Source of the DNA: a virus
Lineage: Duplodnaviria > Heunggongvirae > Uroviricota > Caudoviricetes
Length of the DNA: 64,000 nucleotides
Reading direction: 5' to 3' (one strand)
IMG/VR virus record: IMGVR_UViG_3300037067_004979
Location: 10,733-74,732 of that record
The notes under the pieces were generated by a model. The model ran no database searches. It was not told where the DNA came from and saw nothing but the letters and a program-made list of their open reading frames with translations. The position numbers and the translations under genes are program-made. Below are positions 14,652 to 33,665 of the stretch, piece by piece (within the stretch, counting starts at the first letter, position 1; the number at the start of each line of letters is the position of its first letter).

Positions 14652-14657
14652 TATAAT
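14640..14657 (+). promoter_or_regulatory. conserved phage promoter motif GATGTTTTTTGATATAAT (extended -10)
   Basis: TGnTATAAT extended -10 with upstream T-tract; one of >=9 copies. Confidence 0.5.
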
Positions 14658-14676
14658 ATAAGTGGGCTTGTATCCA

Positions 14677-14720
14677 ATGTCCTGCCGGAAATCCCCTGGA
14701 GTCTAAAAAGATTCTGGGGG
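14677..14720 (+). terminator. rho-independent terminator
   Basis: GGAAATCCCC...GGGGATTTTTATT hairpin + T-run after protease gene. Confidence 0.6.
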
Positions 14721-14730
14721 ATTTTTATTG

Positions 14731-14748
14731 ATGTTTTTTGGTATAATG
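14731..14748 (+). promoter_or_regulatory. conserved promoter motif GATGTTTTTTGGTATAAT
   Basis: Immediately after terminator; drives small-protein cluster. Confidence 0.55.
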
Positions 14749-14844
14749 TGTATATGCCAACTATTGAAATTGAGTTTAATGTTGTGGTGGGGGGTAATAA
14801 GATATAACCTTAACCATAACACTGTTGAGGATAGGGGAAAGTGT

Positions 14845-15027
14845 ATGGCTTGTGGGTATATTTTCCCTAATTACAAGCACTATATGGTAATATGTGATAA
14901 CTGTTTTGATGTGTGGAGTAATAATAGGTTATCCAAGGGGAGAGATCACTTCTTTAGAAATTTTAGGAGAATACCAACCATTGAGGAATACAAGAGATAC
15001 CGATTGCTTGATAGTTTAAGAGGATGA
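14845..15027 (+). CDS. small zinc-ribbon protein (MML-tail family)
   Basis: Start moved to ATG 14845 after AGGGGAAAG; CxxC...CDNCF; C-term EEYKRYRLLDSLRG. Confidence 0.45.
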   Translation: MACGYIFPNYKHYMVICDNCFDVWSNNRLSKGRDHFFRNFRRIPTIEEYKRYRLLDSLRG

Positions 15028-15275
15028 CTAAATTAGATAGAGTGTTATTTGCCTACTACAGGTATCACACAAACAGTCACAGAGAAACTGGTATGTGTAT
15101 ATGCTGTGATGCAAGGTGTAAGAATAACAACATCATGTTTTGTGAGAGTTGTCTCAATATCTATCTAACATTCAGGCAATCACTCAAAAAAAGTGAGCTA
15201 TATACCTTAGCTAAAGCCAGCAGTGATTTTGCTGACTTCAAGTATAAGCTAATGATGCTGAGGTTAAAAGCATAA
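15024..15275 (+). CDS. small zinc-ribbon protein (MML-tail family)
   Basis: CICCDARC...MFCESCL; C-term KLMMLRLKA. Confidence 0.5.
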   Translation: MTKLDRVLFAYYRYHTNSHRETGMCICCDARCKNNNIMFCESCLNIYLTFRQSLKKSELYTLAKASSDFADFKYKLMMLRLKA

Positions 15276-15529
15276 TGGATATTGATATTGCTAGATTAGC
15301 TAGAGCTGTATATTATCATTATAATCAAACATCATATGAAAAGATCAAAGAGTGCGTTGTTTGTGGTAAGGATGTAGCTTCTAATATGATCTTTTGTTCA
15401 GAACATGATAAACAGTGGGAGGATTTTAAGCATTATTCTCTTGGTTTGGAAGATACCTATGCTATGTTAGCTTCATCAGAATCTGAGGATGAGTATATTA
15501 GAAACCTAATGATGAGGGTAATGAGATGA
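15275..15529 (+). CDS. small zinc-ribbon protein (MML-tail family)
   Basis: CVVCGKDV...FCSEHD; C-term IRNLMMRVMR. Confidence 0.5.
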   Translation: MDIDIARLARAVYYHYNQTSYEKIKECVVCGKDVASNMIFCSEHDKQWEDFKHYSLGLEDTYAMLASSESEDEYIRNLMMRVMR

Positions 15530-15601
15530 TAGAGGATTTATGTATCTGTATATTTTTGTTAGTGCCTTGTTTTATCATAGCATTTATATTTTTTTGGCAG
15601 G

Positions 15602-15796
15602 ATGATATATAGATCAATCCTGAGAATCAAGAGAATTCATGAGGTATATCTATTCAGTAGTAAGATACTAGAAGAGGATATTAATGAATATTGTCTCTTG
15701 CCACCATTTAGATATATGGTAGATAGACATGATATACCATTAGAGGATTTTGCTAAGACTGAGAGAATATTATACAGGATGAGAAATAGCATATGA
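15602..15796 (+). CDS. small hypothetical protein, paralog of 15812
   Basis: Shares LLPPFRYMVDRHDIPLEDFAKTERILYRMRNSI-type C-terminus with next ORF. Confidence 0.4.
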   Translation: MIYRSILRIKRIHEVYLFSSKILEEDINEYCLLPPFRYMVDRHDIPLEDFAKTERILYRMRNSI

Positions 15797-15811
15797 GGAT
15801 CTACTAATAAG

Positions 15812-16084
15812 ATGTTTAGTATATTTATTATGATTATTTTTTCTATCATGGTAATTTGTTCAATTCCTTTTATAGTGACTGGTTTTATCAAAATTCATGA
15901 GTGTAATAAGGACTTAAAGAGAAATGAAGAGGTATATGATTACAGAGTAAGGATGATAAAAAAAGATTATGAGGAGTTTCTTCTTCTGCCAAGTTATGAT
16001 AAGATGTTGGAGGATAGAGACACACCCGTAGATGGTTTTGCCATAAGGGAAAGAATGCTGCATAGGATGAGAAAGAGTGTATGA
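15812..16084 (+). CDS. small protein with N-terminal TM helix, paralog of 15602
   Basis: LLLPSYDKMLEDRDTPVDGFAIRERMLHRMRKSV parallels previous ORF. Confidence 0.4.
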   Translation: MFSIFIMIIFSIMVICSIPFIVTGFIKIHECNKDLKRNEEVYDYRVRMIKKDYEEFLLLPSYDKMLEDRDTPVDGFAIRERMLHRMRKSV

Positions 16085-16368
16085 GTATCTGTGAAGATAT
16101 CCACTGCCCAGCCTGTTATTCAGTGAGTGGAGACCATGCAACTTATGAAATAGTACCAAAGTATACCTGTGGGACAATCTGGTGTGTGGGTGAGTGTATT
16201 ACTGGTGAGGCTGGTAACAGACTACAGTGCTGTTATCTATGTAGAAAGAGAGGCAGGTGTGATGAGTATGCACTGGTATATAAGGGTAGTGGACTAGAGG
16301 GTATCATGAGAACAAGAGCTATCAGAAAACACATAAGGAGATACTATAGAGATAATGAGTATATGTGA
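16081..16368 (+). CDS. Cys-rich small protein (CC-x-L-C subfamily)
   Basis: CPACYS...CGTIWCVGEC...CCYLCRKRGRC. Confidence 0.5.
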   Translation: MSICEDIHCPACYSVSGDHATYEIVPKYTCGTIWCVGECITGEAGNRLQCCYLCRKRGRCDEYALVYKGSGLEGIMRTRAIRKHIRRYYRDNEYM

Positions 16369-16621
16369 TGATATTAGGTGTCCCTGTGGTTATGATGTGC
16401 ATGGTATCTCTAGGTATGATCTTCACCCAAAATATGTAGATGATACATTACGATGTGATGAGTCTTGCCCCGATTCAAAGGATCATTTGTATGCATGCTG
16501 TTATCTATGTGATAGCAGAGATAAATGCAGTGTATTTACAGCTACCTTTGGTGGTCTTGAGGGTATAATAAGAGAAAAAAAGATCCGAGATCATCTGAAG
16601 GAACACTATGGTAAGTCCTGA
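16355..16621 (+). CDS. Cys-rich small protein (CC-x-L-C subfamily), tandem paralog
   Basis: MSICDDIRCPCGY...CCYLCDSRDKC; same N-terminus MSIC(E/D)DI as previous. Confidence 0.5.
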   Translation: MSICDDIRCPCGYDVHGISRYDLHPKYVDDTLRCDESCPDSKDHLYACCYLCDSRDKCSVFTATFGGLEGIIREKKIRDHLKEHYGKS

Positions 16622-16694
16622 GTATAGCTCAGTCTGGTAGAGCACTTGGCCTGGGACCAAGGGGTCGTTGGTTCGAATCCAACTACTCAGACCA
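16618..16694 (+). tRNA. tRNA-Pro (anticodon UGG), CCA encoded
   Basis: Cloverleaf read by hand: acceptor CTGAGTA/TACTCAG, D-arm GCTC-AGTCTGGTA-GAGC, anticodon arm CTTGG-CCTGGGA-CCAAG, T-arm GTTGG-TTCGAAT-CCAAC, ACCA 3' end. Confidence 0.75.
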
Positions 16695-16721
16695 AATAGA
16701 TGTTTGTTGTATAATGTAATT

Positions 16722-16982
16722 ATGCCAATAATAAAATTCTTTAGTAGTGATCTAGGATGCAGGATGGAGGATAATTCATCCTGTGAGTATAACACTGACA
16801 CTGGTGAGCTCATCTGTGCTGAGGAGTGTGATAGAATAACTGATAGTGATAACAATCACATCTGTTGTTTATTTTGTGGTAAATTTCCCTGTAAGGGATG
16901 GGATGAACCACTTGGAGCTATTATGATTAAGAACAATGCAATGAAGAAGATAGGTTATTGCATTGAGGAGAAACAACAGTGA
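16722..16982 (+). CDS. Cys-rich small protein
   Basis: Start trimmed to ATG 16722 to avoid tRNA; CEYNTDTGELICAEEC...CCLFCGKFPC. Confidence 0.4.
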   Translation: MPIIKFFSSDLGCRMEDNSSCEYNTDTGELICAEECDRITDSDNNHICCLFCGKFPCKGWDEPLGAIMIKNNAMKKIGYCIEEKQQ

Positions 16983-17278
16983 GTTGTGAGATCTGTGGTA
17001 GTCCTGATAAATTTAAGATCTGTTCATTTACCAGTGGAATCCGTTCAAATAGTTTGTATCATATCTTAGATCTGAAATCAGTAAATAACATGAATAGTGA
17101 GATTACTATACACCACAAGTTTTGCTCAGAACATCTAATTGAATTTTATCGTATGGAACTCATATTAAATGGGTTAAGAGATAATAACCTCCCTGTTGTG
17201 GGTGGTTGTAGGAGATGTAAGGATATACTAAAAAATTTATTTTCTGAGAGGGGACATGATATTACCAATCTACTCTGA
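16979..17278 (+). CDS. small zinc-ribbon protein
   Basis: CEICGSPDKFKIC...CSEH...CRRCKD. Confidence 0.45.
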   Translation: MSCEICGSPDKFKICSFTSGIRSNSLYHILDLKSVNNMNSEITIHHKFCSEHLIEFYRMELILNGLRDNNLPVVGGCRRCKDILKNLFSERGHDITNLL

Positions 17279-17446
17279 GATTATAGATATAATCATAGAG
17301 AGGAGGTTACCACTCCCCATGAATTGCAGTGGGAAAACAAATCATAACATGATGATGCTTCATCTCTGGTTTAACTCACTCATTGCAAGAGACAGGATTG
17401 TTTATCTGGATAGGAATGGTTATATACAGGAGGTTATGTTATAGAT

Positions 17447-17731
17447 ATGATTAAAGAATTAAGGGATTATATTGATATTTTCTTAAAAGTTGAAGAATTA
17501 GAGAATCAAGCAAGAACAGCAACTTCAGAGCTATATGGTATTCGTAATAAGACGTTCAAATTACTACAGGAAATAGGACACTCTGTTGCAATCTGTGTTG
17601 ATAATAAAGTTATTGTGCTTCAATCAGAGGGGACTTCCTCTGTAAAAGTCACTATTCACTACAGTGAGGATGAGGCTATCAAAAAATTAATGTTGGAGAA
17701 ACTGAATGACAAGAATCTGCCCAAAGTGTAA
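17447..17731 (+). CDS. small coiled-coil protein with LMLEKL C-terminal helix
   Basis: No Cys; C-term AIKKLMLEKLNDKN parallels ORF 18938. Confidence 0.45.
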   Translation: MIKELRDYIDIFLKVEELENQARTATSELYGIRNKTFKLLQEIGHSVAICVDNKVIVLQSEGTSSVKVTIHYSEDEAIKKLMLEKLNDKNLPKV

Positions 17732-17987
17732 GACAATTCTGTTTAGGGATGGCAAAAATACATATCATTGTATTGGTTGCTCTCTCAATGGTTCATACAT
17801 TGATATGGAGAGGCAGGCAATACAGATAAGAGATAGGGTAGAGAGACATGCCATCAAGGTCGAGTGTGTTAGGTGTGGTGTGAGAAAGGTACTCAATAAG
17901 GAGATATCCTGCTCTACACTAATCAATAATAACTCCAGATTTATCTGTCATGATTGCCAGAGTATTATCAGAATTGGTAGAAGATAA
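17706..17987 (+). CDS. small zinc-ribbon protein
   Basis: CPKCKT...CIGC...CVRCG...CHDCQ. Confidence 0.45.
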   Translation: MTRICPKCKTILFRDGKNTYHCIGCSLNGSYIDMERQAIQIRDRVERHAIKVECVRCGVRKVLNKEISCSTLINNNSRFICHDCQSIIRIGRR

Positions 17988-18358
17988 TGAGAATATACGC
18001 CAAGTTTAGTGAGATACATAATGTAGAGGTAAATGTGTCACATGTTGGATCATTCCACATGCCAGATTTATTGAAGATCCCTGGCGCTGAGATCACAGTT
18101 ATCAAGTGTAATAAATTTAATATAACCAAGGATAATAAGTATAATCCTAAGATTGTTGGTGATTTAATCAAACACATGAATTATAGATGGCATAGGGTTA
18201 AAGTTAAACTGTGTATTCCTGGTACCAGGTGTACTCTCACATACTCATCAGAGAGACTAATGGCAAGTGAGGTGAAGGCACTTGGGTTAGAGCCAATTGA
18301 ATCTGCTATTCTCAAGGAAGAGCAGTATGCCATGTTTGGAGCTATATCAGGTGGGTAA
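17987..18358 (+). CDS. hypothetical protein
   Basis: 123-aa ORF, no motif. Confidence 0.4.
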   Translation: MRIYAKFSEIHNVEVNVSHVGSFHMPDLLKIPGAEITVIKCNKFNITKDNKYNPKIVGDLIKHMNYRWHRVKVKLCIPGTRCTLTYSSERLMASEVKALGLEPIESAILKEEQYAMFGAISGG

Positions 18359-18533
18359 TTCTAGTGAGATAATCCTAATGATGCGTGCACAGTTAGACAG
18401 ATTACTGATTATCACTGGTGAGCTTGACATTAATCTGAGTGCTAGTGATTCTGTCTATGATGATATCATTCCATCTGTGGAAGCCATAAGAAGAGAACTG
18501 GCATCCATAGAGAGAGTCATCAGTAATGTATGA
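18297..18533 (+). CDS. hypothetical small protein
   Basis: 78-aa ORF, overlaps previous; weak. Confidence 0.3.
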   Translation: MNLLFSRKSSMPCLELYQVGNSSEIILMMRAQLDRLLIITGELDINLSASDSVYDDIIPSVEAIRRELASIERVISNV

Positions 18534-18611
18534 TACCATTGGCTTTATAATCTGGATTATTGTCTTTGTGGTTATTCTTGTGGTGTCTGCTATAGTTGGG
18601 AGGTCAAGCAG

Positions 18612-18896
18612 GTGAACTACGACAGAATAAGAAAGTTAGCATCAATTATAGTGGATTATTGTGAGGATCAATACCATACTGTTAAATATGATGGTAGATG
18701 TAGAGTGTGTGATGTGCTTATAGAACACGAATGTGTGTATTGCTGTAACACATGTTGGGAAACTTATTTTGAAAGTGGTATTTCCTTGATTGGGTGGGAT
18801 CCATCAACAGACTCCCTAATTAATTTCTATAGAAGTTTTAGAAATCTGTCTGATGAAGAAATCAGGTTGAAATTAATGCTAGGATCACTAAGGTAA
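18612..18896 (+). CDS. small zinc-ribbon protein (MML-tail family)
   Basis: GTG start after GGGAGG; CRVCDV...CVYCCNTCW; C-term IRLKLMLGSLR. Confidence 0.5.
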   Translation: MNYDRIRKLASIIVDYCEDQYHTVKYDGRCRVCDVLIEHECVYCCNTCWETYFESGISLIGWDPSTDSLINFYRSFRNLSDEEIRLKLMLGSLR

Positions 18897-18912
18897 GTTG
18901 TTTTTTGATATA
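18895..18912 (+). promoter_or_regulatory. conserved promoter motif GTTGTTTTTTGATATAAT
   Basis: Extended -10 copy; followed by GGAGGATTT RBS. Confidence 0.5.
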
Positions 18913-18937
18913 ATTATCATGTTTGGAGGATTTAACA

Positions 18938-19270
18938 GTGTTTAGAGAGAAATATCATGAGGTAAAAGCCATTGACGAAGAGGTAAAAAACATACAAAAA
19001 GAGATTGTTTCTTTTCTTGCCAAAACCCAGGCTAAATATTCTGATATGCAGATAGAGCTTCGTAAGAAAACTGGTGAACTTATCATGAAGAGAGGGGCTC
19101 TAATTGAATCCCTTGAGAAACTTGGTACAAATGTCTTTATTGAGGATGGTGACAAGAAGGTTATGATTACCTTCTTTACCAATAAGACTGGCAAGAAATC
19201 TGTGTTCTTTAATGAGGGAATTACCCCAGAGGAAGCAGATAGACAACTCATGCTGGAGAATCTAAAGTAG
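18938..19270 (+). CDS. small coiled-coil protein with LMLENLK C-terminus
   Basis: GTG 18938 sits 8 nt after GGAGGA (same RBS spacing as other genes after this promoter type); C-term ADRQLMLENLK. Confidence 0.45.
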   Translation: MFREKYHEVKAIDEEVKNIQKEIVSFLAKTQAKYSDMQIELRKKTGELIMKRGALIESLEKLGTNVFIEDGDKKVMITFFTNKTGKKSVFFNEGITPEEADRQLMLENLK

Positions 19271-19272
19271 AG

Positions 19273-19575
19273 ATGAAAACATACTTTGGGATAATTGATG
19301 ATATGGGCATAGAGAGTTTCATTGATCTTGAGGGTCTAAAGAGGGAGGATATGCTGAGGGCCCTCAAGAATGAGAAAAAATATAAGATGGCCTCTACCAT
19401 AAACTATCTATTACTCAGAGCAAGAATGAATCCACACAGGCACTCTCAGGTATACTGTGTCACTCTGAGTGATGGCCTTGCTAAGAAGATGAATAGCATG
19501 ATAGAGCGTGGTTTATATATGGAAGCTGTTAGGTTTCTTGGAAAGCATGACATAGAGATAGTAAAGATCAAATGA
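19273..19575 (+). CDS. hypothetical protein
   Basis: 100-aa ORF. Confidence 0.4.
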   Translation: MKTYFGIIDDMGIESFIDLEGLKREDMLRALKNEKKYKMASTINYLLLRARMNPHRHSQVYCVTLSDGLAKKMNSMIERGLYMEAVRFLGKHDIEIVKIK

Positions 19576-19793
19576 AGAAATCCGAGTGTGAGTTTGCTGT
19601 GTATTGCCCATTTGGTAATGATAGATACTGTGCTGGGATACCACATAAAACATATCACTGTTTTGAACCCAAAGCAAGTCATCTATTCTGTACTGATCAG
19701 TGTCATGTTAGGGGCGAGGTTATTAGTAATTTTGGCGAGTTTAGGGCTCTGATACTTAGACGCAAGGTGTTGGCATATCTTGAGAAAGCATAG
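19572..19793 (+). CDS. Cys/His-rich small protein
   Basis: CEFAVYCPFGNDRYCAG...HCFEP...CTDQCH. Confidence 0.45.
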   Translation: MKKSECEFAVYCPFGNDRYCAGIPHKTYHCFEPKASHLFCTDQCHVRGEVISNFGEFRALILRRKVLAYLEKA

Positions 19794-20079
19794 GATCATG
19801 TGTTATATCTGCGGTAAGCAGGAGTCTGAGTTTGTTGTATATAGAGACGACGAGATGTTATTCTTCTATTACCCACATAAAACCTACCTCCTATGTAAGA
19901 AGTGTGCTGTGTTGGAGAGGCTGACAAATTCCACATACACCATGTATAAGATACGCAGCATAAGAAATGTTGAGGAACACTCCAAGTGGATTCGTAAGGC
20001 TGTTGTCTATGTTATTATAGAGAATAGAAAACACGTGAAGAAACTCATTAGAGCCTGGGGGATCGATGTCAGGAAGTAA
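19780..20079 (+). CDS. small zinc-ribbon protein
   Basis: CYICGKQE...LCKKCAV. Confidence 0.45.
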   Translation: MRKHRIMCYICGKQESEFVVYRDDEMLFFYYPHKTYLLCKKCAVLERLTNSTYTMYKIRSIRNVEEHSKWIRKAVVYVIIENRKHVKKLIRAWGIDVRK

Positions 20080-20182
20080 GTGCCCAGTCTGTAATAACTA
20101 TTGTAGTGATCCTGGTGGTGTATGTGTTTATTATTGTTGTAATCATGAACAAACCTGTTGTCTGGTCTGTGATCATTTTTAA
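20066..20182 (+). CDS. Cys-rich micro-protein (38 aa, 10 Cys), not in ORF track
   Basis: MSGSKCPVCNNYCSDPGGVCVYYCCNHEQTCCLVCDHF; contains CC-L-V-C motif of the local family; competes with overlapping ORF 20106-20324. Confidence 0.35.
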   Translation: MSGSKCPVCNNYCSDPGGVCVYYCCNHEQTCCLVCDHF

Positions 20183-20329
20183 GAGAGTTGCTGCAAAGAA
20201 ACTTAGGGGACACTGTGGTCTTCTTCAGGGTGGCCTCTACAAGAAGGTATTTGAAACATATAATATCACTGATTATTGTTTTCCCCTGAAAAACCCAAAG
20301 AGCAAGAGAGAGCTTAGTAAGTAGTATTA

Positions 20330-20347
20330 ATTGTTTTTTGGTATAAT
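20330..20347 (+). promoter_or_regulatory. conserved promoter motif TTGTTTTTTGGTATAAT
   Basis: Extended -10 copy followed by GGAGGATTT RBS. Confidence 0.5.
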
Positions 20348-20366
20348 TTCAAGTGGAGGATTTCAA

Positions 20367-27069: not shown

Positions 27070-28290
27070 TATTAAAAACTAGTCATATATGAACATCATA
27101 TTATATGAAGCTAATCATCCATCAATATAGACTCCAATCCAAATCAAATACGCAATATAAATGATGCCACAATAGCCAAGAGACACACACAAATACAAAA
27201 CCAATATAAACCTATATCAATAAAATGTGGGGCAAAAGAAAGATAGAACAAATGTATTAAACCTAGATACATGACAATATGATCAAATAAGAAGAGTACG
27301 ATTGAGACAGAATCAAACCAATTCAAAGCCAATTCAAAGTTGCTACCTCATCTCTCTGCCAACAGGTTCATATAAGACTATTTTTATCCAGGCGGACGGA
27401 GAAAGTACACTTTAGAACAAATGTATTATAATATTACCAGGTAGCAAATCGTATCCAAAACACGATCAATTATACAACAAATTTGCGCTCAGAATGACCA
27501 AGAATGATGCCGAAGTCATTTATTAATGATAGTATATTGATAAACACTTGTTCTATTAATCTTGAGCAAACGGGGCATTAAAAAGAACAAATACGTATGG
27601 ATGACTAGAACACTTGTATTATTCATATATGACTGTTTCTGAGACATCTTTATTGTAAAGCTGGAATTGGAATCAAATTCTATTCACGCCGTCAATGATA
27701 TAATATCAACAAATATGACTTTGTATTTGGTTAGAGAGTTCATTTATGACCATCAAAAGTTACTCAATTTGATCGTAATATTGCCAATTCCTAATTCAAG
27801 TATGTTTCTTTGACGCCACGAAGCTCAAGGATGATGCCGAGACAAGTTATGCGCTAGATTCTATTGGTGGATGAAATATATACTTATTTGCGCTCCAGAA
27901 GACCCTGATTAATAGCACAATTGTGTTGTCATATATGACTATTTGATCGTATCCTTATGTAAAGAAGCACACTTGTACTAGTTTGTTATAGAACAAATGG
28001 GCTAATTAGAACAGATGTGCTGTGTATCATTATGTAATGTAATTAACTAACTATCATATATGACATACATAATAACAAATATGGTTGGTTAATTAATACA
28101 TATATGACTATCTCTATGATATATGCTATATGACCATCATATATGACTGTCTTCCATGATTGTCTCATAACCCCCCATTATGTCAAATGCTTACTATATG
28201 ATATTCATATGTGACTATTGACCTGCAAGTCAGGGACTTACTTGAAAATTTTTTGACCTGAATTTATATCTGGGAACAATATATGATATC
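27070..28290. repeat. 1.2-kb non-coding divergent region with iterated motifs (TCATATATGACT x>=8; ACACTTGTA; AGAACAAATG)
   Basis: No ORF >62 aa; copies at ~27084, 27624, 27942, 28055, 28103, 28130, 28139, 28205; candidate origin/regulatory hub. Confidence 0.55.
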
Positions 28291-28544
28291 TATTGATGGT
28301 ACTCCTGTCGACTGTATTTTAGATATCTATGATACTTCTTGATGAATATTATGTGTGACAGTGGTTCAACACCCTCTAGTTTACCATCACATTTCTTTAT
28401 ATTTTTACATAGCATACAACACTTACACATATTTCTGTTGTGTATTTCCCAGACCACACAGCTAACAATACCATTCTCCATTCTATACCTACCATACATA
28501 CACCCCACTGATAGACAGTCTCTTGGATCGATTGGATTATTCAC
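28290..28544 (-). CDS. Cys-rich small protein (CC-M-L-C subfamily)
   Basis: CLSVGCMYG...CKCCMLCKNIKKC. Confidence 0.5.
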   Translation of the reverse strand: MNNPIDPRDCLSVGCMYGRYRMENGIVSCVVWEIHNRNMCKCCMLCKNIKKCDGKLEGVEPLSHIIFIKKYHRYLKYSRQEYHQ

Positions 28545-28557
28545 TGTGATCTACTCA

Positions 28558-28818
28558 TCATGTTAATTTAGATCTACTGTATCTTCTATACTTGAGATAT
28601 TTTTGGGAGAACATTAGACGTGCTAGGGGTTCTACCATTGCTAGGATGTTATGTTCTCTATCACATTCCCCTATATTCCTACATATCAGACAGCACTTGC
28701 ATTGATCTTTTTCACTTGTATTCCATATCTCACAGCTAAAAATACTGTTATTCTTTCTTGTTTTTCCATACTTGCATCCAACTGAGATGCAATCATCTAT
28801 ACTAATTGGGCTCTTCAT
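28558..28818 (-). CDS. Cys-rich small protein, tandem paralog
   Basis: CISVGCKYG...CKCCLICRNIGEC. Confidence 0.5.
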   Translation of the reverse strand: MKSPISIDDCISVGCKYGKTRKNNSIFSCEIWNTSEKDQCKCCLICRNIGECDREHNILAMVEPLARLMFSQKYLKYRRYSRSKLT

Positions 28819-29098
28819 CTCTAACCCCCAGATATTTTTGTCTAAAGACTAGTAGCATCAGTGGATCAACATCACTCATTTTCCCAACAACATTCCTGTG
28901 CCAGTTGCATGTGTCATCACACAGCAAACAGCACCCAGTTATACTGTTCATTCTATTAGAAATAGTGGGGGGATAGACTTTAAATCCATCACCTCTTCTA
29001 CAAACCTTTCCACAGTCATGTAAAGTTTTCATACTTGGTATTAACTCACTGTGTGGGCATCTGAGAGATTCACAGTCCTCTCTTCTTATAAATCTCAT
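28802..29098 (-). CDS. Cys-rich small protein
   Basis: CESLRCPHS...CGKVC...CCLLCDDTC. Confidence 0.45.
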   Translation of the reverse strand: MRFIRREDCESLRCPHSELIPSMKTLHDCGKVCRRGDGFKVYPPTISNRMNSITGCCLLCDDTCNWHRNVVGKMSDVDPLMLLVFRQKYLGVRDEEPN

Positions 29099-29439
29099 CT
29101 CATGTTCTCAAGTATTATTATTTTTTTAAACTCATCAAATGATATATTAACTACTTCTTCCATACTCATCCTTGTTACTCTTATTAATATATGATATATC
29201 ACATTTATCTCATCCCTAAATATCCTAGCTAATTTATCATGACAATGCAAGTGCATTTGATATGGCCATGATGACATAAAATAATCTGATTTACGTATAT
29301 GCACCGGATTATTACAGTAAATACATATTTGATCATATGATAGTGGTTGAACACGAGCGGACATCTTTTGAGATATCAGATATTTCTTTATCTGTATGAA
29401 GTCATTGATATCAATCACTCTAACCCCCCATATTTCCAA
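29095..29439 (-). CDS. hypothetical protein
   Basis: 114 aa; C-term IIILENMR. Confidence 0.4.
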   Translation of the reverse strand: MEIWGVRVIDINDFIQIKKYLISQKMSARVQPLSYDQICIYCNNPVHIRKSDYFMSSWPYQMHLHCHDKLARIFRDEINVIYHILIRVTRMSMEEVVNISFDEFKKIIILENMR

Positions 29440-29671
29440 TCATCAAGACCCTTCTATAATCGGGATCTGTTGGTAGTATTCCTTTATTTCTATAGTCACC
29501 AATTGCTGATATAAAACTAAAGATCTCATTATTGTGCTTATGAAAACACTTTTTGCAGCTGTAGAAGACTCTATCATGATGACAGTCTCTACCACAGATA
29601 AGGCACCTGCGGAGAGGTACAGCCCTGGTAGTATGCTGCTGATATATACCTAGTAATATCTCAAATTTCAT
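29420..29671 (-). CDS. small zinc-ribbon protein (MML tail)
   Basis: CLICGRDCHHDRVFYSCKKCFHKH; C-term RRVLMIGNMGG. Confidence 0.5.
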   Translation of the reverse strand: MKFEILLGIYQQHTTRAVPLRRCLICGRDCHHDRVFYSCKKCFHKHNNEIFSFISAIGDYRNKGILPTDPDYRRVLMIGNMGG

Positions 29672-29882
29672 TACTGCCTCATCCTTAAAAGCATTATCAG
29701 TCTTTTTACAGTATCTTCATTATTTTCTGTTATCTTTAAATTAACCTGAAAACATACTTGTCTTTTATTAACATAAAGACACTCATAACAGCAAACATAA
29801 TCATTGCATAACTACTGTCCACCAAAACAGTCCTCTCTGAATGAACAATTAAGCTTATCACACAATTCATTTCTCATTGTTT

Positions 29883-29957
29883 TGGTACCCCCGGCAGGAG
29901 TTGAACCTGCATTCTCTGTTTAGAAGACAGATGCTCTATCCACTGAGCTACGGAGGC
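29883..29957 (-). tRNA. tRNA-Arg (anticodon UCU), CCA encoded
   Basis: Reverse complement GCCTCCG-TA-GCTC-AGTGGATA-GAGC-A-TCTGT-CTTCTAA-ACAGA-GAAT-GCAGG-TTCAACT-CCTGC-CGGGGGT-A-CCA. Confidence 0.8.
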
Positions 29958-29962
29958 ACACA

Positions 29963-30214
29963 CTATCTTGACTCCAACTTTCCGAGCATTATTACTCTTC
30001 TGTATGTCTCATCATTTGGCAGTATTTGATATGAGTAATATAGATCGATTGCTGAGATAAACTTCCTTGCCTCATTACCATGAATAGCCCAACAGTCATT
30101 ACACATAAATATTGTTTGATCATCCCTACAGTATTTACCACAGACTGGGCAATCTTCTATTATCCCATAATAGTAGCATCTTCTATATATGTGTTGCAGT
30201 ATTGAGATATCCAT
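29963..30214 (-). CDS. small zinc-ribbon protein (MML tail)
   Basis: CPVCGKYCRDDQTIFMCNDCW; C-term RRVIMLGKLESR; close paralog of 29420. Confidence 0.5.
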   Translation of the reverse strand: MDISILQHIYRRCYYYGIIEDCPVCGKYCRDDQTIFMCNDCWAIHGNEARKFISAIDLYYSYQILPNDETYRRVIMLGKLESR

Positions 30215-30221
30215 GTATTTA

Positions 30222-30584
30222 CTAGATCCTCTTTCTGACAGGCCTTGTCTCCCTTACTGTTTTAGAGACCACCTTATTGGTTTCCTTAAATAAACCGGAT
30301 TGATAAAATCTGATTTCCTCACCACAAAATGGGCAGAATTTAATTTTCCTGGTTGAGGATTCATCATCAAAATAGGCATGACCAAGATATATCTCAATGA
30401 TTGGCTTGGGGTCTTCCATGGTGTCATAATAGGCACCAAAAGATACATGATGATCTGAATAGGCTTCCTCTAATTCATCACAGCAAAACTCCCTGGTCTT
30501 ATACTCTTCTAGGTAGGGTAGTTCCCTCTTGGATTTCCCTCCATCCATAACCTCTCTGATAACTCTATTGTATTCAAAAATCAT
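30222..30584 (-). CDS. hypothetical protein with C-terminal zinc ribbon
   Basis: CPFCGEE; RBS GAGGTGA; preceded by conserved promoter motif. Confidence 0.5.
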   Translation of the reverse strand: MIFEYNRVIREVMDGGKSKRELPYLEEYKTREFCCDELEEAYSDHHVSFGAYYDTMEDPKPIIEIYLGHAYFDDESSTRKIKFCPFCGEEIRFYQSGLFKETNKVVSKTVRETRPVRKRI

Positions 30585-30602
30585 ATATCACCTCATGTTA
30601 TT

Positions 30603-30619
30603 ATTATATCAAAAACATC
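30603..30619 (-). promoter_or_regulatory. conserved promoter motif (minus strand) GATGTTTTTGATATAAT
   Basis: Reverse complement of + strand attatatcaaaaacatc; followed by GAGGTGA RBS and ATG of 30584. Confidence 0.5.
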
Positions 30620-30855
30620 TATTCACTTTTTCTCAGTTGGTTGAGCATGGCTAGCTGTATTAGTTCACTCTCAGATAAATTTTGTAGAGTGGTGCACTCT
30701 TCCAGTACATGATAATTATTTTTTATGACAAGCATGAATTTTCTCCAGCAATCATCACAGGCAAATACTCTTGGCATCTTAATACCACAGTATGGGCACT
30801 CAGTGTGATTAATGGGGCTTTTGCTAAGCATTTCACTTATTATTTCCCTGTACAT
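30619..30855 (-). CDS. small zinc-ribbon protein (MML tail)
   Basis: CPYCGIKMPRVFACDDCW; C-term LAMLNQLRKSE. Confidence 0.45.
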   Translation of the reverse strand: MYREIISEMLSKSPINHTECPYCGIKMPRVFACDDCWRKFMLVIKNNYHVLEECTTLQNLSESELIQLAMLNQLRKSE

Positions 30856-30878
30856 CAGCTATCTTAATCCATCTTTAC

Positions 30879-31130
30879 TCATTGTGTAAAGTTACTTATT
30901 ATTGCTTCCTGTATTGTGTAATAGGTTGGATTACCCTTTTCCAATTTTATTTGACTATCATAAGAATCAAGATGATATGTATGAGCTGATTCATACCTTA
31001 CGAAGGCTCTCTCAAGCCAGATTATTCTCCCATCATTTAAGTTGTGTGGGAGAAAACAAAACACCGTATAACCAACTTGTAATCTCATTACCTTTTTGTT
31101 TATATCTTCTTTACATTTACCAATTATCAT
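30879..31130 (-). CDS. hypothetical small protein
   Basis: 83 aa. Confidence 0.4.
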   Translation of the reverse strand: MIIGKCKEDINKKVMRLQVGYTVFCFLPHNLNDGRIIWLERAFVRYESAHTYHLDSYDSQIKLEKGNPTYYTIQEAIISNFTQ

Positions 31131-31402
31131 TTTAATATCCCTATCTTTATAAACATCTTAATTTTCTGTATGAGTGATTGTGATTTACCTTCATATTGAC
31201 TTTTCTTGCACACTATAAAAAACATAAATTTTGTGTCTTTATCAACCTCTCCGGAAAAAAAACAGTAATCTGTGTCATTATCTATGTGACATTTAACACA
31301 ACAGATATACTTTTTACTTTGTCCACATAAGTGAGTTCGACAATGTAACATATTTTTTTGTGGACAAATAATTTGACATTGTTTTTCTGTGGGTACAAAC
31401 AT
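31127..31402 (-). CDS. Cys-rich small protein
   Basis: CQIICPQ...CRTHLCG...CCVKCH. Confidence 0.45.
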   Translation of the reverse strand: MFVPTEKQCQIICPQKNMLHCRTHLCGQSKKYICCVKCHIDNDTDYCFFSGEVDKDTKFMFFIVCKKSQYEGKSQSLIQKIKMFIKIGILK

Positions 31403-31428
31403 ATTATATAACCTCTAGTTAATATGAG

Positions 31429-31515
31429 TGGCGGAGTCGGTGAGATTTGAACTCACGATGCTGTTAGCATGACCGCTTTCAAGACGGCTCCGATAAACCA
31501 CTCCGGCACGACTCC
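31429..31515 (-). tRNA. tRNA-Ser (anticodon UGA), type II, CCA encoded
   Basis: Reverse complement GGAGTCG...GCCGT-CTTGAAA-GCGGT, long variable arm CATGCTAACAGCATC, T-arm GTGAG-TTCAAAT-CTCAC, CGACTCC-G-CCA. Confidence 0.75.
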
Positions 31516-31590
31516 TGGTAGGGAGTGCAAGATTCAAACTTGCGTCTCCGAGATATAAGCTCGGTATCCTAATCACTGAACTAACTCCCC
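31516..31590 (-). tRNA. candidate tRNA-Ile (anticodon UAU), CCA encoded; weak D-stem
   Basis: Reverse complement GGGGAGT..CCGAG-CTTATAT-CTCGG..GCAAG-TTTGAAT-CTTGC-ACTCCCT-A-CCA; anticodon loop has U33 and A37; D-stem has 2 G-U pairs. Confidence 0.55.
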
Positions 31591-31598
31591 CCATCAAG

Positions 31599-32387
31599 CT
31601 AGTCTGTTGGTAATACAATAGGCATGCCCTGTGGTACAACAACAATCTTTGCATCAGGAGCAAGCTTATTAATGTATAGATACTGTAGATACTCCCTTGT
31701 CAATGTTGATTGTAATACCTTGATGGCCTCTGCCTGTCCCTTGGCCTGAGCAACAGCCTGTTCTGCCTCTACTCTTATTTGGAGTAACTTATTTTCGGCC
31801 TTTAAGACATCCTGTGCAGCAGCTACCTTTGATTCAATTGCAGCAGAGAATTCCTTGGAAAAGGCAAAATCAGTAAGACTGACAGTCTCAACAACTATGT
31901 GTCTTAGTGCTAGACGCTCAGTTATAGCCTTTGCAATATCATCCTTAACCTGGGCTCTCTTGGTAATCATCTCCTCTGCAGGATACTTTGCAGTGATTTC
32001 CTTTAGTGTTTCCTGAATCATGTTGTGCCCAACTGTATTCATATAACTAACACCCAGTTGATTGTAGACATCAATGGCATAGTTCTTATCAAGATGATAG
32101 TTTATCTTTATGGTAGTTTTTACTTCCTGAAGGTCCCTGGTACCAGCAGATGATTCTGGTTCCTCATATAGCTGTGTTTGAAGTGATATGAGCTGTAAGC
32201 CCTCAAACAATGGCATCTTAACGGAGTATCCAGCCTCTCTCACACCAACAGCCTTACCACCCTGAAGAACAATATTTAGGTGTCCTGCAGGTGTGGTTAT
32301 GATACCACCAACAAGGGTAACAATGAGTAATATAACTATTACCACTGCCCCAAAAATGATTAAACCGACCTTAGTATCTTCGTCCAT
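31599..32387 (-). CDS. SPFH/band-7 (prohibitin/HflK/C-like) membrane protein
   Basis: N-terminal TM helix; SPFH core ...IVLQGGKAVGVREAGYSVKMPLFEGLQLISLQTQ...; C-terminal coiled coil AEQAVAQAKGQAEAIKVLQ; GC-richer. Confidence 0.7.
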   Translation of the reverse strand: MDEDTKVGLIIFGAVVIVILLIVTLVGGIITTPAGHLNIVLQGGKAVGVREAGYSVKMPLFEGLQLISLQTQLYEEPESSAGTRDLQEVKTTIKINYHLDKNYAIDVYNQLGVSYMNTVGHNMIQETLKEITAKYPAEEMITKRAQVKDDIAKAITERLALRHIVVETVSLTDFAFSKEFSAAIESKVAAAQDVLKAENKLLQIRVEAEQAVAQAKGQAEAIKVLQSTLTREYLQYLYINKLAPDAKIVVVPQGMPIVLPTD

Positions 32388-32557
32388 TTTTCTTTTCTCC
32401 TATTTATTTTATTTGTTGCTAGTTCTGGTTAGAGACTTGTTGTATGTATGAAAATAACACCTCCTGAAATTTTTTACAGTAATTAATCAATTCAGCCACA
32501 TATAAAAAATTTTACAAAACATAAAAAATATGATACAATAAATTCTGTCCTTCCAAC

Positions 32558-32821
32558 CTAATATAATCTATTTAACATTATTGTCTTCTTTATTTTTCTA
32601 TTAGATATACCCTCTCTACATAATCTAATTATCTCATACCTTTCACTCTGAAATTCACTAGATAAATCCAAGTATATACCAACACAATCATTACACAAGA
32701 TAAAAGCTCTTTCTCTTGATACTTTACACAGACAAAAACAGCAAACACTCCTATCAGAAGTTGGTGATGAATAATTAGTCATTGACCTAATCATATTAAT
32801 ATATTTATCTATACTACTCAT
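32558..32821 (-). CDS. small zinc-ribbon protein (MML tail)
   Basis: CCFCLCKVSRERAFILCNDCV; C-term KKTIMLNRLY. Confidence 0.5.
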   Translation of the reverse strand: MSSIDKYINMIRSMTNYSSPTSDRSVCCFCLCKVSRERAFILCNDCVGIYLDLSSEFQSERYEIIRLCREGISNRKIKKTIMLNRLY

Positions 32822-33086
32822 TATTTAGCCTATGCAGCATACATTTCTTTACTATATCATCAATACTATATCTTTCTAGTAGACCCTCAATACTAGTAGT
32901 ACCAGGAAATAACACAATATTAAGATCTCTTAGATATTTATTTCTGCAACTACCGCAGACAGGGTATCTTGTTAATACAAAACTATTATTCTTCTCACAC
33001 AGTATACAAACATCAGGTGGATCTATCTCTCTATTTGTGGCAAAGAAATCTTTTATCTTTTCTAGAACTTCTCTAAAAGACATCAC
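32814..33086 (-). CDS. small zinc-ribbon protein (MML tail)
   Basis: CILCEKNN...CGSCRNKY; C-term VKKCMLHRLNNE. Confidence 0.5.
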   Translation of the reverse strand: MMSFREVLEKIKDFFATNREIDPPDVCILCEKNNSFVLTRYPVCGSCRNKYLRDLNIVLFPGTTSIEGLLERYSIDDIVKKCMLHRLNNE

Positions 33087-33529
33087 TTATCATTCCAAAA
33101 TTTAGATTTTCTGAGATACTGCTGTTGTCTCTTATCATTCCAAGAGTCCATTCTTGATAGATTAGATAGTCTGTCTGCAAATTTCAGCATAATAGCCTTT
33201 TTGGTGTGGAGTCTGGGGAAGTAATATCCATGTTCATCATTGGTGCCATCATGCGTTACCTCATTCACAAGATCTGCTATCACAGGACCAAAATTCTCTG
33301 TTAGTTCCTCAAGAGTGGTGTCTGTATCTTCCAGTGTATCATGTAGATATGCAGCACAAATTATGTCATCATCATCAGTTACCATGGATAGTATACGTAC
33401 CACATTAAGTATGTGAGCAGATAGATAATCTCTATTATCATCATCTACCTGTCCATGATGTTTTACCATGGCAAAGCCATATGCTTTTGATCTTAGGGAT
33501 AAATCTTTTTCTGGAAATCCAACTTTCAT
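33083..33529 (-). CDS. small HD-domain phosphohydrolase (RelA/SpoT-like HD, candidate small alarmone hydrolase)
   Basis: HGQ...H...AAYLHDTLEDTDTT matches SpoT/Mesh1 HD motif (HD..ED); 148 aa. Confidence 0.6.
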   Translation of the reverse strand: MKVGFPEKDLSLRSKAYGFAMVKHHGQVDDDNRDYLSAHILNVVRILSMVTDDDDIICAAYLHDTLEDTDTTLEELTENFGPVIADLVNEVTHDGTNDEHGYYFPRLHTKKAIMLKFADRLSNLSRMDSWNDKRQQQYLRKSKFWNDK

Positions 33530-33536
33530 ATATTAC

Positions 33537-33552
33537 ATTATATCAAAAACAT
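33537..33552 (-). promoter_or_regulatory. conserved promoter motif (minus strand) ATGTTTTTGATATAAT
   Basis: -10 ends 7 nt before ATG 33529: near-leaderless, or true start is downstream. Confidence 0.4.
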
Positions 33553-33665
33553 TAAATTGTCTGTAATATTTTAGAAGTTTGAGTTTCTTTAATATAATAA
33601 AGAGTAGGAGACGGGTCGATTCCGCCTCTATTTTTTATTATTAGGAGGTATCAGAGAAAGAACCT

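What the first reader, a model, noticed from the sequence alone, without database searches (positions are those of the whole stretch)
14652..33665. A 19-kb accessory island splits the head-morphogenesis module
The prohead protease ends at 14651, and the scaffold and capsid genes resume only at 33666. The interval is bracketed by a terminator plus promoter pair on the left and a divergent promoter on the right. It holds the small-protein family, tRNAs, the MoxR/VWA pair, SPFH/HD genes and a 1.2-kb repeat region. Protease, scaffold and capsid genes are normally contiguous. This looks like a large hypervariable insertion hot-spot.
Basis: inference. Interest (0 to 1): 0.6.

Follow-up and report, generated by a model that had tools for sequence, protein, structure and literature searches.

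The report
Hypervariable accessory island splitting phage head genes
A 19-kb stretch of small fast-evolving genes, tRNAs and a few accessory enzymes sits between the capsid protease and the scaffold/capsid genes of an uncultivated virus. Its relatives carry 0.4 to 29 kb of mostly unrelated DNA at the same junction, so it is a well-documented example of an ordinary "plastic region" of a large phage genome.

Summary
The protease, which carries an intein, ends at 14651 and the scaffold starts at 33666. Between them lie about 48 ORFs, 4 tRNAs, a MoxR/VWA pair, SPFH and HD genes and a 1.27-kb non-coding repeat region. Independent assemblies cover both edges at 100% identity.

In relatives with MCP 58–74% identical, the protease-to-scaffold gap measures 0.38, 0.39, 1.1, 1.46, 2.1, 9.2 and 28.9 kb, against 19.0 kb here. 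Only 4 of 49 island ORFs have a homolog in the 100-kb relative, against 19 of 27 flanking genes (p=3e-8). tRNA numbers in relatives range from 0 to 28.

It does not look like recent foreign DNA. Its composition matches the rest of the window. It carries its own promoter-like motif, GTTTTTTGRTATAAT, nine times, with one weak match elsewhere in the 64 kb. About half of its ORFs belong to two orphan Cys-rich paralog families.

"Normally contiguous" holds only partly. A sister clade has the order scaffold–MCP–protease, again followed by variable small ORFs.

It most resembles the hyperplastic regions of T4-type phages with their promoter/stem-loop cassettes. I rate it a new member of a known kind, of moderate interest.

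The parts
13059..14651 (+). Left flank: prohead (head-maturation) protease. The protease domain is aa 1-168 plus aa 508-530. A 339-aa intein with an endonuclease domain interrupts it at nt 13563-14579.
   Evidence: An intein-free allele in L004 joins at exactly the same residues.
14643..14747 (+). Left boundary cassette: promoter-like motif (14643-14657), hairpin terminator with an 18-bp stem and a T-run (14687-14726), and a second promoter-like motif (14733-14747).
14728..20324 (+). Plus arm, block 1: about 20 small ORFs (62-123 aa), mostly Cys-rich members of families 1 and 2. It contains tRNA-Pro(tgg) at 16618-16694 and an internal promoter motif at 18900-18914.
   Evidence: No Pfam or PHROG family matches.
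20331..23420 (+). The only block conserved in a distant relative. It comprises a roughly 240-aa ORF carrying the family tail motif (20367-21083), the MoxR-type AAA+ ATPase (21121-22152), the DUF2201 VWA/metallopeptidase protein (22207-23373) and a terminator (23384-23420). Promoter motifs lie at 20333 and 21086. GC is 0.42-0.455.
   Evidence: MoxR is 52.6% and the VWA protein about 46% identical to their homologs in the rel100 island.
23447..27059 (+). Plus arm, block 2: ten small ORFs that include tandem paralogs, a 214-aa Lys/Glu-rich ORF (26042-26686), a bidirectional terminator (26711-26737), a 66-aa ORF (26815-27015) and a terminator (27036-27059). Promoter motifs lie at 25988 and 26764.
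27016..28289 (.). 1.27-kb non-coding zone where the two arms converge. It holds about 10 copies of the (G)TCATATATGAC palindrome and several copies of TAGAACAnnTGT. GC is 0.33. No RNA family or tRNA remnant was found.
   Evidence: The sequence is identical in independent assemblies L166 and L167.
28290..33529 (-). Minus arm: about 14 ORFs, including three tandem family-2 paralogs, five family-1 members, SPFH (31599-32387) and the HD phosphohydrolase (33083-33529). tRNAs are Arg(tct) 29883-29957, Ser(tga) 31429-31515 and Ile(tat) 31516-31590. Promoter motifs on the minus strand lie at 30603-30617 and 33537-33551.
33530..33665 (.). Right boundary: a divergent intergenic region. It holds the island promoter motif on the minus strand (33537-33551), a generic -35/-10 match on the plus strand (33570-33598), a short hairpin (33608-33628) and an AGGAGG before the scaffold start.
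33666..35847 (+). Right flank: the putative scaffold (33666-34451) and the major capsid protein (34474-35847). The two are adjacent in every relative.

Best explanation
The interval is a hyperplastic (accessory) region of a large uncultivated tailed virus. It sits at the junction between the protease gene and the scaffold-capsid operon.

It is not needed for head assembly. Some relatives have the two genes about 0.4 kb apart.

It appears to be transcribed independently of the head genes. It has nine copies of its own promoter-like motif, a T-tract followed by an extended -10 (GTTTTTTG[G/A]TATAAT). Most copies are followed by a GGAGGA ribosome-binding site and a start codon. Hairpin terminators punctuate the units.

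Its content turns over quickly by several routes:
- Tandem duplication and divergence of two orphan families of small zinc-ribbon-like proteins.
- Gain and loss of tRNA genes.
- Gain, loss and inversion of gene blocks.

By analogy with T4-type phages, recombination between the repeated promoter/stem-loop cassettes may mediate this turnover (inferred).

The likely role of most of the genes is early host takeover or counter-defence, plus translation support from the tRNAs. That role is inferred, not shown.

What is shown: the anatomy, the variable size and content, the native composition, the restriction of the motif to the island, and the paralog expansion. What is inferred: promoter activity, early timing, the recombination mechanism and the gene functions.
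For: Size series at one junction, measured from protease stop to scaffold start:
- L063: 0.38 kb
- L044: 0.39 kb
- L004: 1.10 kb
- L008/L042: 1.46 kb
- L039: 2.14 kb
- L037: 9.17 kb
- this window: 19.01 kb
- rel100 (IMG/VR 3300027899_001695): 28.9 kb
- L002, L027, L035, L046: at least 9.2 kb

Content turnover:
- 4 of 49 island ORFs have a rel100 homolog, against 19 of 27 flank genes (Fisher p=2.9e-8).
- There are no shared genes next to the scaffold in relatives whose MCP N-terminus is 82-89% identical.
- The island is on the plus strand in rel100, L027 and L046, on the minus strand in L037, L035 and L002, and on both strands here.
- tRNAs upstream of the scaffold number 0, 1, 3, 4, 11, 14, 25, 25 and 28 across contigs. 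Only tRNA-Pro looks orthologous to its rel100 counterpart (87% identity).

Native character:
- Tetranucleotide, dinucleotide and GC values do not differ significantly from the rest of the window.
- The promoter-like motif gives 10 hits with up to 2 mismatches against 1.1 expected. Nine are inside the island, and all nine are co-oriented with the genes, on both arms.

In-situ expansion:
- Family 1 has 12 paralogs on both arms.
- Family 2 has 11 paralogs.
- Several paralog pairs are adjacent.
- A family-1 profile searched against 1.84 billion proteins finds only the window's own copies plus one other small protein.
- No small island ORF has a Pfam or PHROG family, apart from two marginal zinc-ribbon matches.

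Terminators are enriched: 16 found against 9.0 +/- 3.0 expected, with strong ones at unit ends.

Published analogue: hyperplastic regions and PeSL cassettes of T4-type phages (PMC2839356, PMC4122927).
Against: - MoxR and the VWA protein are conserved at this position in a relative with only 63% MCP identity. Part of the region is therefore stable and may have a fixed function.
- All crown-group relatives keep a large region here, which could mean that something in it, such as an origin of replication or the tRNAs, is required.
- Promoter activity and timing are untested.
- The exact motif is absent from relatives. Recombination between cassettes of different genomes therefore cannot be demonstrated.
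- The MCP tree is neighbour-joining without support values, so the direction of change (growth or shrinkage) is uncertain. The sister lineages L044 (0.39 kb) and L046 (at least 9.2 kb) show that the change is not monotonic.
- Two kb of the rel100 island could not be retrieved.
Confidence: 0.8

Rival explanations
1. A recently acquired foreign mobile element (integrative island, transposon or captured host DNA) inserted between the protease and the scaffold gene.
For: - The MoxR/VWA block has higher GC (0.42-0.455) and the largest tetranucleotide distance in the window.
- Its homologs occur in 631 unrelated phage records, with Bacillus phage G the best hit.
- The region is bracketed by regulatory signals, as morons are.
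Against: - No integrase, transposase or recombinase family was found.
- No flanking direct repeats were found apart from the promoter motif.
- Overall composition is native.
- The same promoter motif and the same paralog families occur on both arms.
- MoxR and the VWA protein already sit at this position in rel100, so that block is old.
Confidence: 0.04
2. A required, position-fixed functional module, not dispensable cargo. The region would hold the replication origin or a regulatory centre (the 1.27-kb array of palindromes), the tRNA set and the MoxR/VWA machine. It would therefore be kept between the head genes, with only the small ORFs around these anchors varying.
For: - The clustered palindromes resemble iterons or operator arrays and lie in the most AT-rich kilobase of the island.
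- MoxR and the VWA protein are conserved at this position.
- The seven crown-group contigs with at least 9 kb of upstream sequence, this window included, all have a large region here.
- In the sister clade a variable region also abuts the protease.
Against: - Relatives L063 and L044 have nothing at the junction, and L004, L008 and L039 have only 1-5 small ORFs.
- L037's complete 9.2-kb island lacks MoxR and the VWA protein.
- The palindrome motif is absent from all fetched loci.
- The GC-skew switch at 27 kb is explained by the change of gene orientation.
Confidence: 0.12
3. The split is the scar of a genome rearrangement and not of growth in place. The head genes would have been shuffled as blocks, perhaps promoted by the inteins and homing endonucleases in and near the protease gene. 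The island would then be a pre-existing variable region that came to lie between them.
For: - The position of the protease differs among clades. The order is P-S-M in outgroups and basal lineages and S-M-x-x-P in about 55 sister-clade loci.
- Two connector-like genes lie after the MCP here but before the protease in rel100.
- Cargo-protein homologs lie after the MCP in L044.
- In L004, L008 and L063, minus-strand accessory genes lie upstream of the protease.
- The protease carries two different inteins at two sites.
Against: - Within clade A the order P-gap-S-M holds wherever both genes are seen, and the gap ranges from 0.38 to 28.9 kb. That pattern fits growth at a fixed junction.
- This rival is compatible with the main explanation and is not exclusive of it.
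Confidence: 0.25
4. An assembly artefact: a chimeric join of two viruses within the repeat-rich non-coding region.
For: In the Logan assembly of SRR18595300 the region is fragmented into several contigs.
Against: - Contigs from three sources (Logan, ENA ERZ27247358 and JGI Ga0172380) overlap at 99.9-100% identity. They span both island edges and the convergence zone.
- Only 21365-22998, inside the MoxR and VWA genes, lacks an independent contig. rel100 has the same gene order there.
Confidence: 0.01

Closest known systems
Hyperplastic regions (HPRs) of T4-type phages, with PeSL promoter/stem-loop cassettes (Arbiol et al. 2010, PMC2839356; Comeau et al. 2014, PMC4122927)
   Same: - A block of small, mostly ORFan, non-essential genes is interspersed among conserved core genes.
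- Indels and replacements distinguish relatives.
[quoted passage not shown] Here the composite stem-loop plus motif occurs at 14687-14747 and 26711-26778.
- tRNA genes and homing endonucleases live in such regions. HNH genes lie inside the tRNA arrays of rel100 and L027.
   Different: - The virus lineage is unrelated. Its MCP is SU10-type and distantly similar to the MCPs of haloarchaeal and methanogen tailed viruses.
- The region separates the protease from the scaffold and MCP. In T4 (from my own knowledge) genes 21-22-23 are adjacent.
- The promoter motif lacks a -35 element and has a T-tract instead.
- PeSL-mediated exchange and mini-circles were shown experimentally in T4-type phages. Here they are only inferred.
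Morons of lambdoid and HK97-like phages: autonomous promoter-gene-terminator units inserted between late genes (Hendrix and colleagues; cited from my own knowledge)
   Same: - Extra genes lie between two morphogenetic genes.
- They are bracketed by their own promoter and terminator.
- They are absent from relatives in which the flanking genes are adjacent.
   Different: - Morons are one or a few genes, often of deviant composition.
- This region has about 48 ORFs and 4 tRNAs, native composition, two convergent arms and internal paralog families.
tRNA-gene regions of large lytic phages such as T4, T5 and KVP40/nt-1
   Same: Relatives place arrays of up to 25-28 tRNAs in this region, interspersed with small ORFs and HNH endonucleases.
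   Different: This window keeps only 4 scattered tRNAs, of which only tRNA-Pro is clearly orthologous to that of a relative. tRNAs are a minor part of this island.
Phage MoxR-like AAA+ ATPase plus DUF2201 VWA/metallopeptidase gene pair (phrog_1297 and phrog_1314), as in N4-like phages, Bacillus phage G and several jumbo phages
   Same: The two genes are adjacent in the same order and match both families strongly (1.6e-53 and 2.2e-86). Homologs of the VWA protein occur in 631 phage records.
   Different: The function of the pair in phages is unknown, and many records mislabel it "HNH endonuclease". Here a protein carrying the island-specific C-terminal tail lies directly upstream.

Membership tests
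Hyperplastic / plastic accessory region of a large phage genome | It is flanked by conserved core genes that are adjacent or nearly adjacent in some relatives. | tested here: met
   The protease-scaffold gap is 0.38-0.39 kb in L063 and L044. The outgroups L014/L015 have a fused protease-scaffold protein.
Hyperplastic / plastic accessory region of a large phage genome | Its size and gene content differ among relatives while the flanks stay conserved. | tested here: met
   Gaps range from 0.38 to 28.9 kb. Only 4 of 49 island ORFs are shared with rel100, against 19 of 27 flank genes (p=3e-8).
Hyperplastic / plastic accessory region of a large phage genome | It is rich in small ORFan genes. | tested here: met
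   The median ORF is 91 aa, against 248 aa outside the island. The small ORFs have no Pfam or PHROG family. The family-1 profile finds one small homolog outside this virus among 1.84e9 proteins.
Hyperplastic / plastic accessory region of a large phage genome | The genes are dispensable for growth. | not testable with these tools
   Inferred only, from their absence in relatives.
PeSL-type mobile regulatory cassettes (T4-type phages) | A repeated composite of a sigma-70-like early promoter and a stem-loop terminator lies between genes of the region. | tested here: inconclusive
   The nine motif copies are restricted to the island. Only two or three of them are next to a strong stem-loop (14687-14726 and 26711-26737). 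The others stand alone.
PeSL-type mobile regulatory cassettes (T4-type phages) | Indel and replacement breakpoints between close relatives fall at the cassettes. | not tested
   No relative close enough was found. The nearest distinct one, L077/L082, has a scaffold protein only 44% identical, with about 72-75% DNA identity over two short stretches of the scaffold gene and none upstream. The motif is absent from the fetched loci.
Moron | A single autonomous transcription unit, usually of deviant nucleotide composition. | tested here: not met
   There are many units on two arms, and overall composition is not deviant. Only the MoxR/VWA block stands out.
Integrative mobile element / genomic island in the strict sense | An integrase, transposase or recombinase gene, and flanking target repeats. 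| tested here: not met
   No such family was found in Pfam, PHROGs or PADLOC scans. The repeat search found no flanking direct repeats other than the promoter motif.
HK97-fold head module (protease, scaffold, MCP) | A protease of the prohead serine protease type, and an MCP family match. | tested here: met
   phrog_23555, phrog_3017 and phrog_9427 (head maturation protease) match. Peptidase_S78_2 matches below its cutoff. SU10_MCP is above its cutoff. His78 and Ser79 are invariant in the protease alignment.
HK97-fold head module (protease, scaffold, MCP) | Scaffold protein identity of 33666-34451. | tested here: inconclusive
   There is no family or PDB hit, and no detectable similarity to the scaffold-like C-terminal part of the L014 fusion protein. 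The assignment rests on position, composition and conservation next to the MCP.

The most novel reading that the evidence does not exclude
The island may be a coordinated system and not a loose collection of cargo. At least 15 proteins with unrelated N-terminal parts end in the same about 14-residue helix, S-x-E-E-h-x-K-x-h-M-L-x-x-L. They comprise 12 zinc-ribbon proteins of family 1, three of family 2, two Cys-poor proteins and the roughly 240-aa protein just upstream of MoxR.

This tail could be a docking peptide. It might deliver a diversifying panel of small effectors to one partner. Candidates are the MoxR-VWA machine encoded in the middle of the island, the procapsid, or a host hub protein.

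On this reading the promoter-flanked minigenes would be a cassette array evolving by duplication and exchange. The adjacent array of about 10 palindromes could be its regulatory or replication centre.
Probability: 0.1. Interest if true: 0.75.

Novelty: new member of a known kind. Interest (0 to 1): 0.38.

Why it matters
- It gives a clean natural series for studying how plastic regions of large virus genomes grow. One junction holds 0.4 to 29 kb across relatives in an uncultivated, widely distributed lineage from groundwater, sediment and lake metagenomes.
- It shows that the protease-scaffold-capsid adjacency used as an annotation heuristic can fail by tens of kilobases.
- It flags two orphan zinc-ribbon families with a shared C-terminal tail as candidates for host-takeover or anti-defence functions.
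- For annotation pipelines, the island would otherwise make the head module look incomplete or the contig look chimeric.

Tried and rejected
- Megablast of 24 kb against 50,697 phage records found nothing. The virus has no sequenced close relative. tblastn with the MCP gave only hits below 30% identity, to haloarchaeal and Methanofastidiosa tailed viruses.
- I tested whether the non-coding repeat zone is a decayed tRNA array, because relatives have arrays of 25-28 tRNAs nearby. A relaxed Rfam scan found no tRNA-like or other credible RNA.
- PADLOC found no defence-system hits for MoxR, the VWA protein, SPFH, HD and four other island ORFs.
- Pfam and PHROGs scans of all small ORFs, concatenated, gave only two marginal zinc-ribbon hits (Auto_anti-p27, and a Lar-like match over 24 residues).
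- An AlphaFold model of a family-1 member (pLDDT 71) searched against BFVD gave no match with E below 0.3.
- The cargo proteins' shared N-terminal motif is unrelated to the small proteins' C-terminal tail, so there is no evidence for a common capsid-targeting signal.
- The 250-aa ORF upstream of MoxR has no similarity to the ORF at the same position in rel100. The conserved block is therefore two genes, not three.
- Host assignment failed. The only hit in 185,579 species genomes is a 4.1-kb contig binned in a Candidatus Aenigmatarchaeota MAG, which is weak evidence. The extended -10 motifs, GGAGGA ribosome-binding sites, hairpin terminators and encoded CCA ends look bacterial. The host remains open.
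- One viral-contig scan was wasted trying to close the 2-kb gap in rel100.
- The exact promoter and palindrome motifs are absent from all fetched loci.

Full report
**What is there**

The window is a large tailed virus with no sequenced close relative (no megablast hit).

ORF 13059-14651 is a head-maturation protease. Residues 1-168 match protease families. His78 and Ser79 are invariant among eight homologs.

The protease gene is interrupted by a 339-aa intein (C169...HN507|C508, nt 13563-14579). An intein-free homolog in locus L004 joins at exactly these residues.

ORF 34474-35847 is the major capsid protein (SU10_MCP, phrog_24667). ORF 33666-34451 sits 23 nt upstream of it. It is acidic, low-complexity and Cys-free, and it is present next to the MCP in every relative. 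I accept it as the scaffold by inference only, because it has no family hit.

The interval 14652-33665 (19,014 nt) holds about 48 ORFs (median 91 aa, against 248 aa outside) and four tRNAs. Its main parts are:
- a plus-strand arm (14.7-27.0 kb) that includes a MoxR-type AAA+ ATPase and a DUF2201 VWA/metallopeptidase protein;
- a 1.27-kb non-coding zone;
- a minus-strand arm (28.3-33.5 kb) with the SPFH and HD genes.

**It is not an artefact**

Independent contigs from Logan, ENA and JGI assemblies are 99.9-100% identical to the window. They cover 7565-21364, 22999-28983, 24780-29951 and 29268-45847. Both edges and the convergence zone are therefore confirmed.

**Synteny**

I fetched 160+ related loci from IMG/VR, JGI metagenomes and GTDB genomes.

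Within the window's own clade (MCP 58-74% identical over its full length, and up to about 90% over partial matches), the order protease-gap-scaffold-MCP holds wherever both genes are seen. The gap sizes are:

| Locus | Gap (kb) | Content of the gap |
|---|---|---|
| L063 | 0.38 | none |
| L044 | 0.39 | one 50-aa ORF |
| L004 | 1.10 | one minus-strand ORF |
| L008/L042 | 1.46 | two ORFs |
| L039 | 2.14 | five ORFs |
| L037 | 9.17 | all minus strand, 14 tRNAs; the protease C-terminus lies at L037 4-93 |
| this window | 19.01 | about 48 ORFs, 4 tRNAs |
| rel100 (100-kb IMG/VR contig 3300027899_001695) | 28.9 | all plus strand, 25 tRNAs; rebuilt from L013, L017, L018 and L007 with 2 kb missing |

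Four further contigs have at least 9.2 kb upstream of the scaffold without a protease. They carry 1, 28, 11 and 1 tRNAs.

Only four window island ORFs have a homolog in rel100: MoxR (52.6%), the VWA protein (46%), and two small ORFs at 25% and 46% identity over partial alignments. By contrast 19 of 27 flanking genes have one (Fisher p=2.9e-8).

The nearest distinct relatives have an MCP N-terminus 82-89% identical. They share none of the genes adjacent to the scaffold.

The stated check (protease directly followed by scaffold elsewhere) is positive.

**Nuances from the wider phylogeny**

A neighbour-joining MCP tree, without support values, places several short-gap genomes on early branches and most large islands in a crown group. 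However, L046 (at least 9.2 kb) is sister to L044 (0.39 kb), so the change is not one-directional.

The outgroups L014/L015 encode a 668-aa protease-scaffold fusion directly before the MCP.

A large sister clade (about 55 loci, MCP 46-52% identical) has the order scaffold-MCP-two genes-protease. In the five loci examined, a run of mostly unshared small ORFs starts right after the protease.

So the variable region is associated with the 3' side of the protease gene in both clades. The head genes have also been rearranged as blocks. "Normally contiguous" is a useful expectation here, not a rule.

**Nature of the island**

In 3-kb windows, GC is 0.376 against 0.356 and tetranucleotide distance is 122 against 104, with Mann-Whitney p above 0.15. 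Only the MoxR/VWA block (GC up to 0.455) and the non-coding zone stand out.

The island has its own regulatory vocabulary. GTTTTTTG(G/A)TATAAT gives 10 hits with up to 2 mismatches in 64 kb, against 1.1 expected. Nine of them are in the island and are co-oriented with the genes on both arms. Six of the nine are followed within 10-30 nt by GGAGGA or a close variant and a start codon. One copy sits 7 nt before the HD start codon at the right edge. Two copies flank the strong hairpin at the left edge.

Strong hairpin/T-run terminators close the units at 14687-14726, 23384-23420, 26711-26737 and 27036-27059.

Generic sigma-70 matches are not enriched. The promoter claim rests on the repeated motif alone, and activity is untested.

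**Gene content**

Family 1 has 12 members on both arms. Each has an N-terminal helix, a CxxC...CxxC knuckle, and a C-terminal helix of the form S-x-E-E-h-x-K-x-h-M-L-x-x-L. AlphaFold gives pLDDT 71, with the tail helical.

Family 2 has 11 members with the signature CC-x2-C-x2-9-C, and none outside the island.

Several paralogs are adjacent, which points to tandem duplication.

A strict regular expression for the tail finds it in 10 of 49 island ORFs, in 0 of 52 outside ORFs, and in 0.4 on average after shuffling. By eye, at least 15 proteins carry it. These include two Cys-poor proteins and the roughly 240-aa protein just upstream of MoxR.

A profile of family 1 searched against 1.84 billion representative proteins recovers only the window's own copies and one other small protein. 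No small ORF has a Pfam or PHROG family.

The MoxR/VWA pair belongs to phrog_1297 and phrog_1314. Homologs of the VWA protein occur in 631 phage records, including N4-like phages, jumbo phages and Bacillus phage G. Its function is unknown. There are no PADLOC hits.

**The non-coding zone**

Region 27016-28289 lies between the two converging arms. It contains about ten (G)TCATATATGAC palindromic sites. The window has 19 matches with up to 1 mismatch against 3.7 expected, nearly all of them here. It also has several TAGAACAnnTGT repeats.

It has no RNA-family or tRNA-remnant signal, and the motif is absent from relatives. It may be a binding array for a dimeric DNA-binding protein, acting as an origin, an operator or a partition-like site. 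This is unexplained.

**Mechanism, as far as supported**

Shown: the junction tolerates from 0 to 29 kb. Content, orientation and tRNA complement turn over. The region is compositionally native. It expands by local paralogy. It carries its own repeated promoter-like and terminator signals.

Inferred: the genes form separately transcribed, probably early, host-takeover or auxiliary units. Recombination between repeated regulatory cassettes, together with homing endonucleases (HNH genes lie inside the tRNA arrays of rel100 and L027), drives the shuffling. The model for this is the hyperplastic regions and PeSL cassettes of T4-type phages (PMC2839356, PMC4122927).

**Verdict**

The phenomenon is of a known kind: a hyperplastic accessory region. 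It is documented here in a new, uncultivated lineage at an unusual place, with an unusually clear size series.

Interest is moderate. The orphan tail-bearing protein families and the palindrome array are the parts most worth a further look.

Noticed in passing
window 13563-14579 (within the protease gene 13059-14651); also L008, L039, L042, L063, and L013 8897-10351: The prohead protease carries a 339-aa intein (C...HN|C) with an endonuclease domain. Relatives have the same intein at the same site, or no intein (L004, L037, L044). The 100-kb relative has a different, HNH-type intein at another site (VFH|SD, next to the invariant His-Ser).
   Followed up: partly
window 10023-10796 (+): This free-standing ORF (phrog HNH endonuclease) is paralogous to the endonuclease part of the protease intein (blastp E=1e-17). 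It may be the donor or a derivative of the intein's homing endonuclease. Further HNH genes lie at 35915-36445 and 44242-44913.
   Followed up: no
window 4340-12557 (+): Four large proteins upstream of the protease share an N-terminal motif, KVYLxxGExxPxGxxxYxGxRGGRFYL. They have different C-terminal domains, including a DRAT-like ADP-ribosyltransferase (4340-7360) and an anthrax-lethal-factor-like domain (7353-8549). They look like a set of packaged or ejected toxin-bearing cargo proteins.
   Followed up: partly
window 14779-33086 (12 + 11 ORFs on both arms): Two orphan Cys-rich small-protein families are present. A roughly 14-residue C-terminal helix (…EEhxKxhMLxxL) is shared across families and also by non-Cys proteins. 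A profile search of 1.84e9 proteins finds only one small homolog outside this virus.
   Followed up: partly
window 27016-28289: This 1.27-kb non-coding region has about 10 copies of the palindrome GTCATATATGAC and several copies of TAGAACAnnTGT. It lies between convergent terminators. It could be an origin or operator array, but it is unexplained.
   Followed up: partly
window 39634-47414 (+): A glycan-modification cluster lies inside the structural region. It comprises a glycosyltransferase-methyltransferase fusion, a second GT1, a GDP-mannose 4,6-dehydratase and a papain-like protease. It is partly conserved at the same place in the 100-kb relative.
   Followed up: no
L001 15-2177; L007 5441-8302; L027 3077-8517: Relatives carry arrays of 25-28 tRNA genes just upstream of the scaffold gene. 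HNH endonuclease genes are embedded in two of them (L007/rel100 and L027). This window has only four scattered tRNAs, all with an encoded CCA end.
   Followed up: partly
L165 (JAZDMZ010000062.1, 4.1 kb): The only hit among 185,579 species-representative genomes is a short contig binned in a Candidatus Aenigmatarchaeota (DPANN) MAG. Its MCP is 68% identical. The window's expression signals look bacterial, so the host domain is unresolved.
   Followed up: no
L089-L164 (sister clade, e.g. L139 5439-10900): In about 55 IMG/VR loci the head genes are ordered scaffold-MCP-87 aa-310 aa-protease. In the five loci examined, a run of mostly unshared small ORFs begins immediately after the protease. The variable region tracks the protease gene, not the scaffold.
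   Followed up: partly
window 33666-34451 compared with L077/L082: The putative scaffold diverges much faster than the adjacent capsid protein. It is 44% identical where the MCP N-terminus is 89% identical.
   Followed up: no
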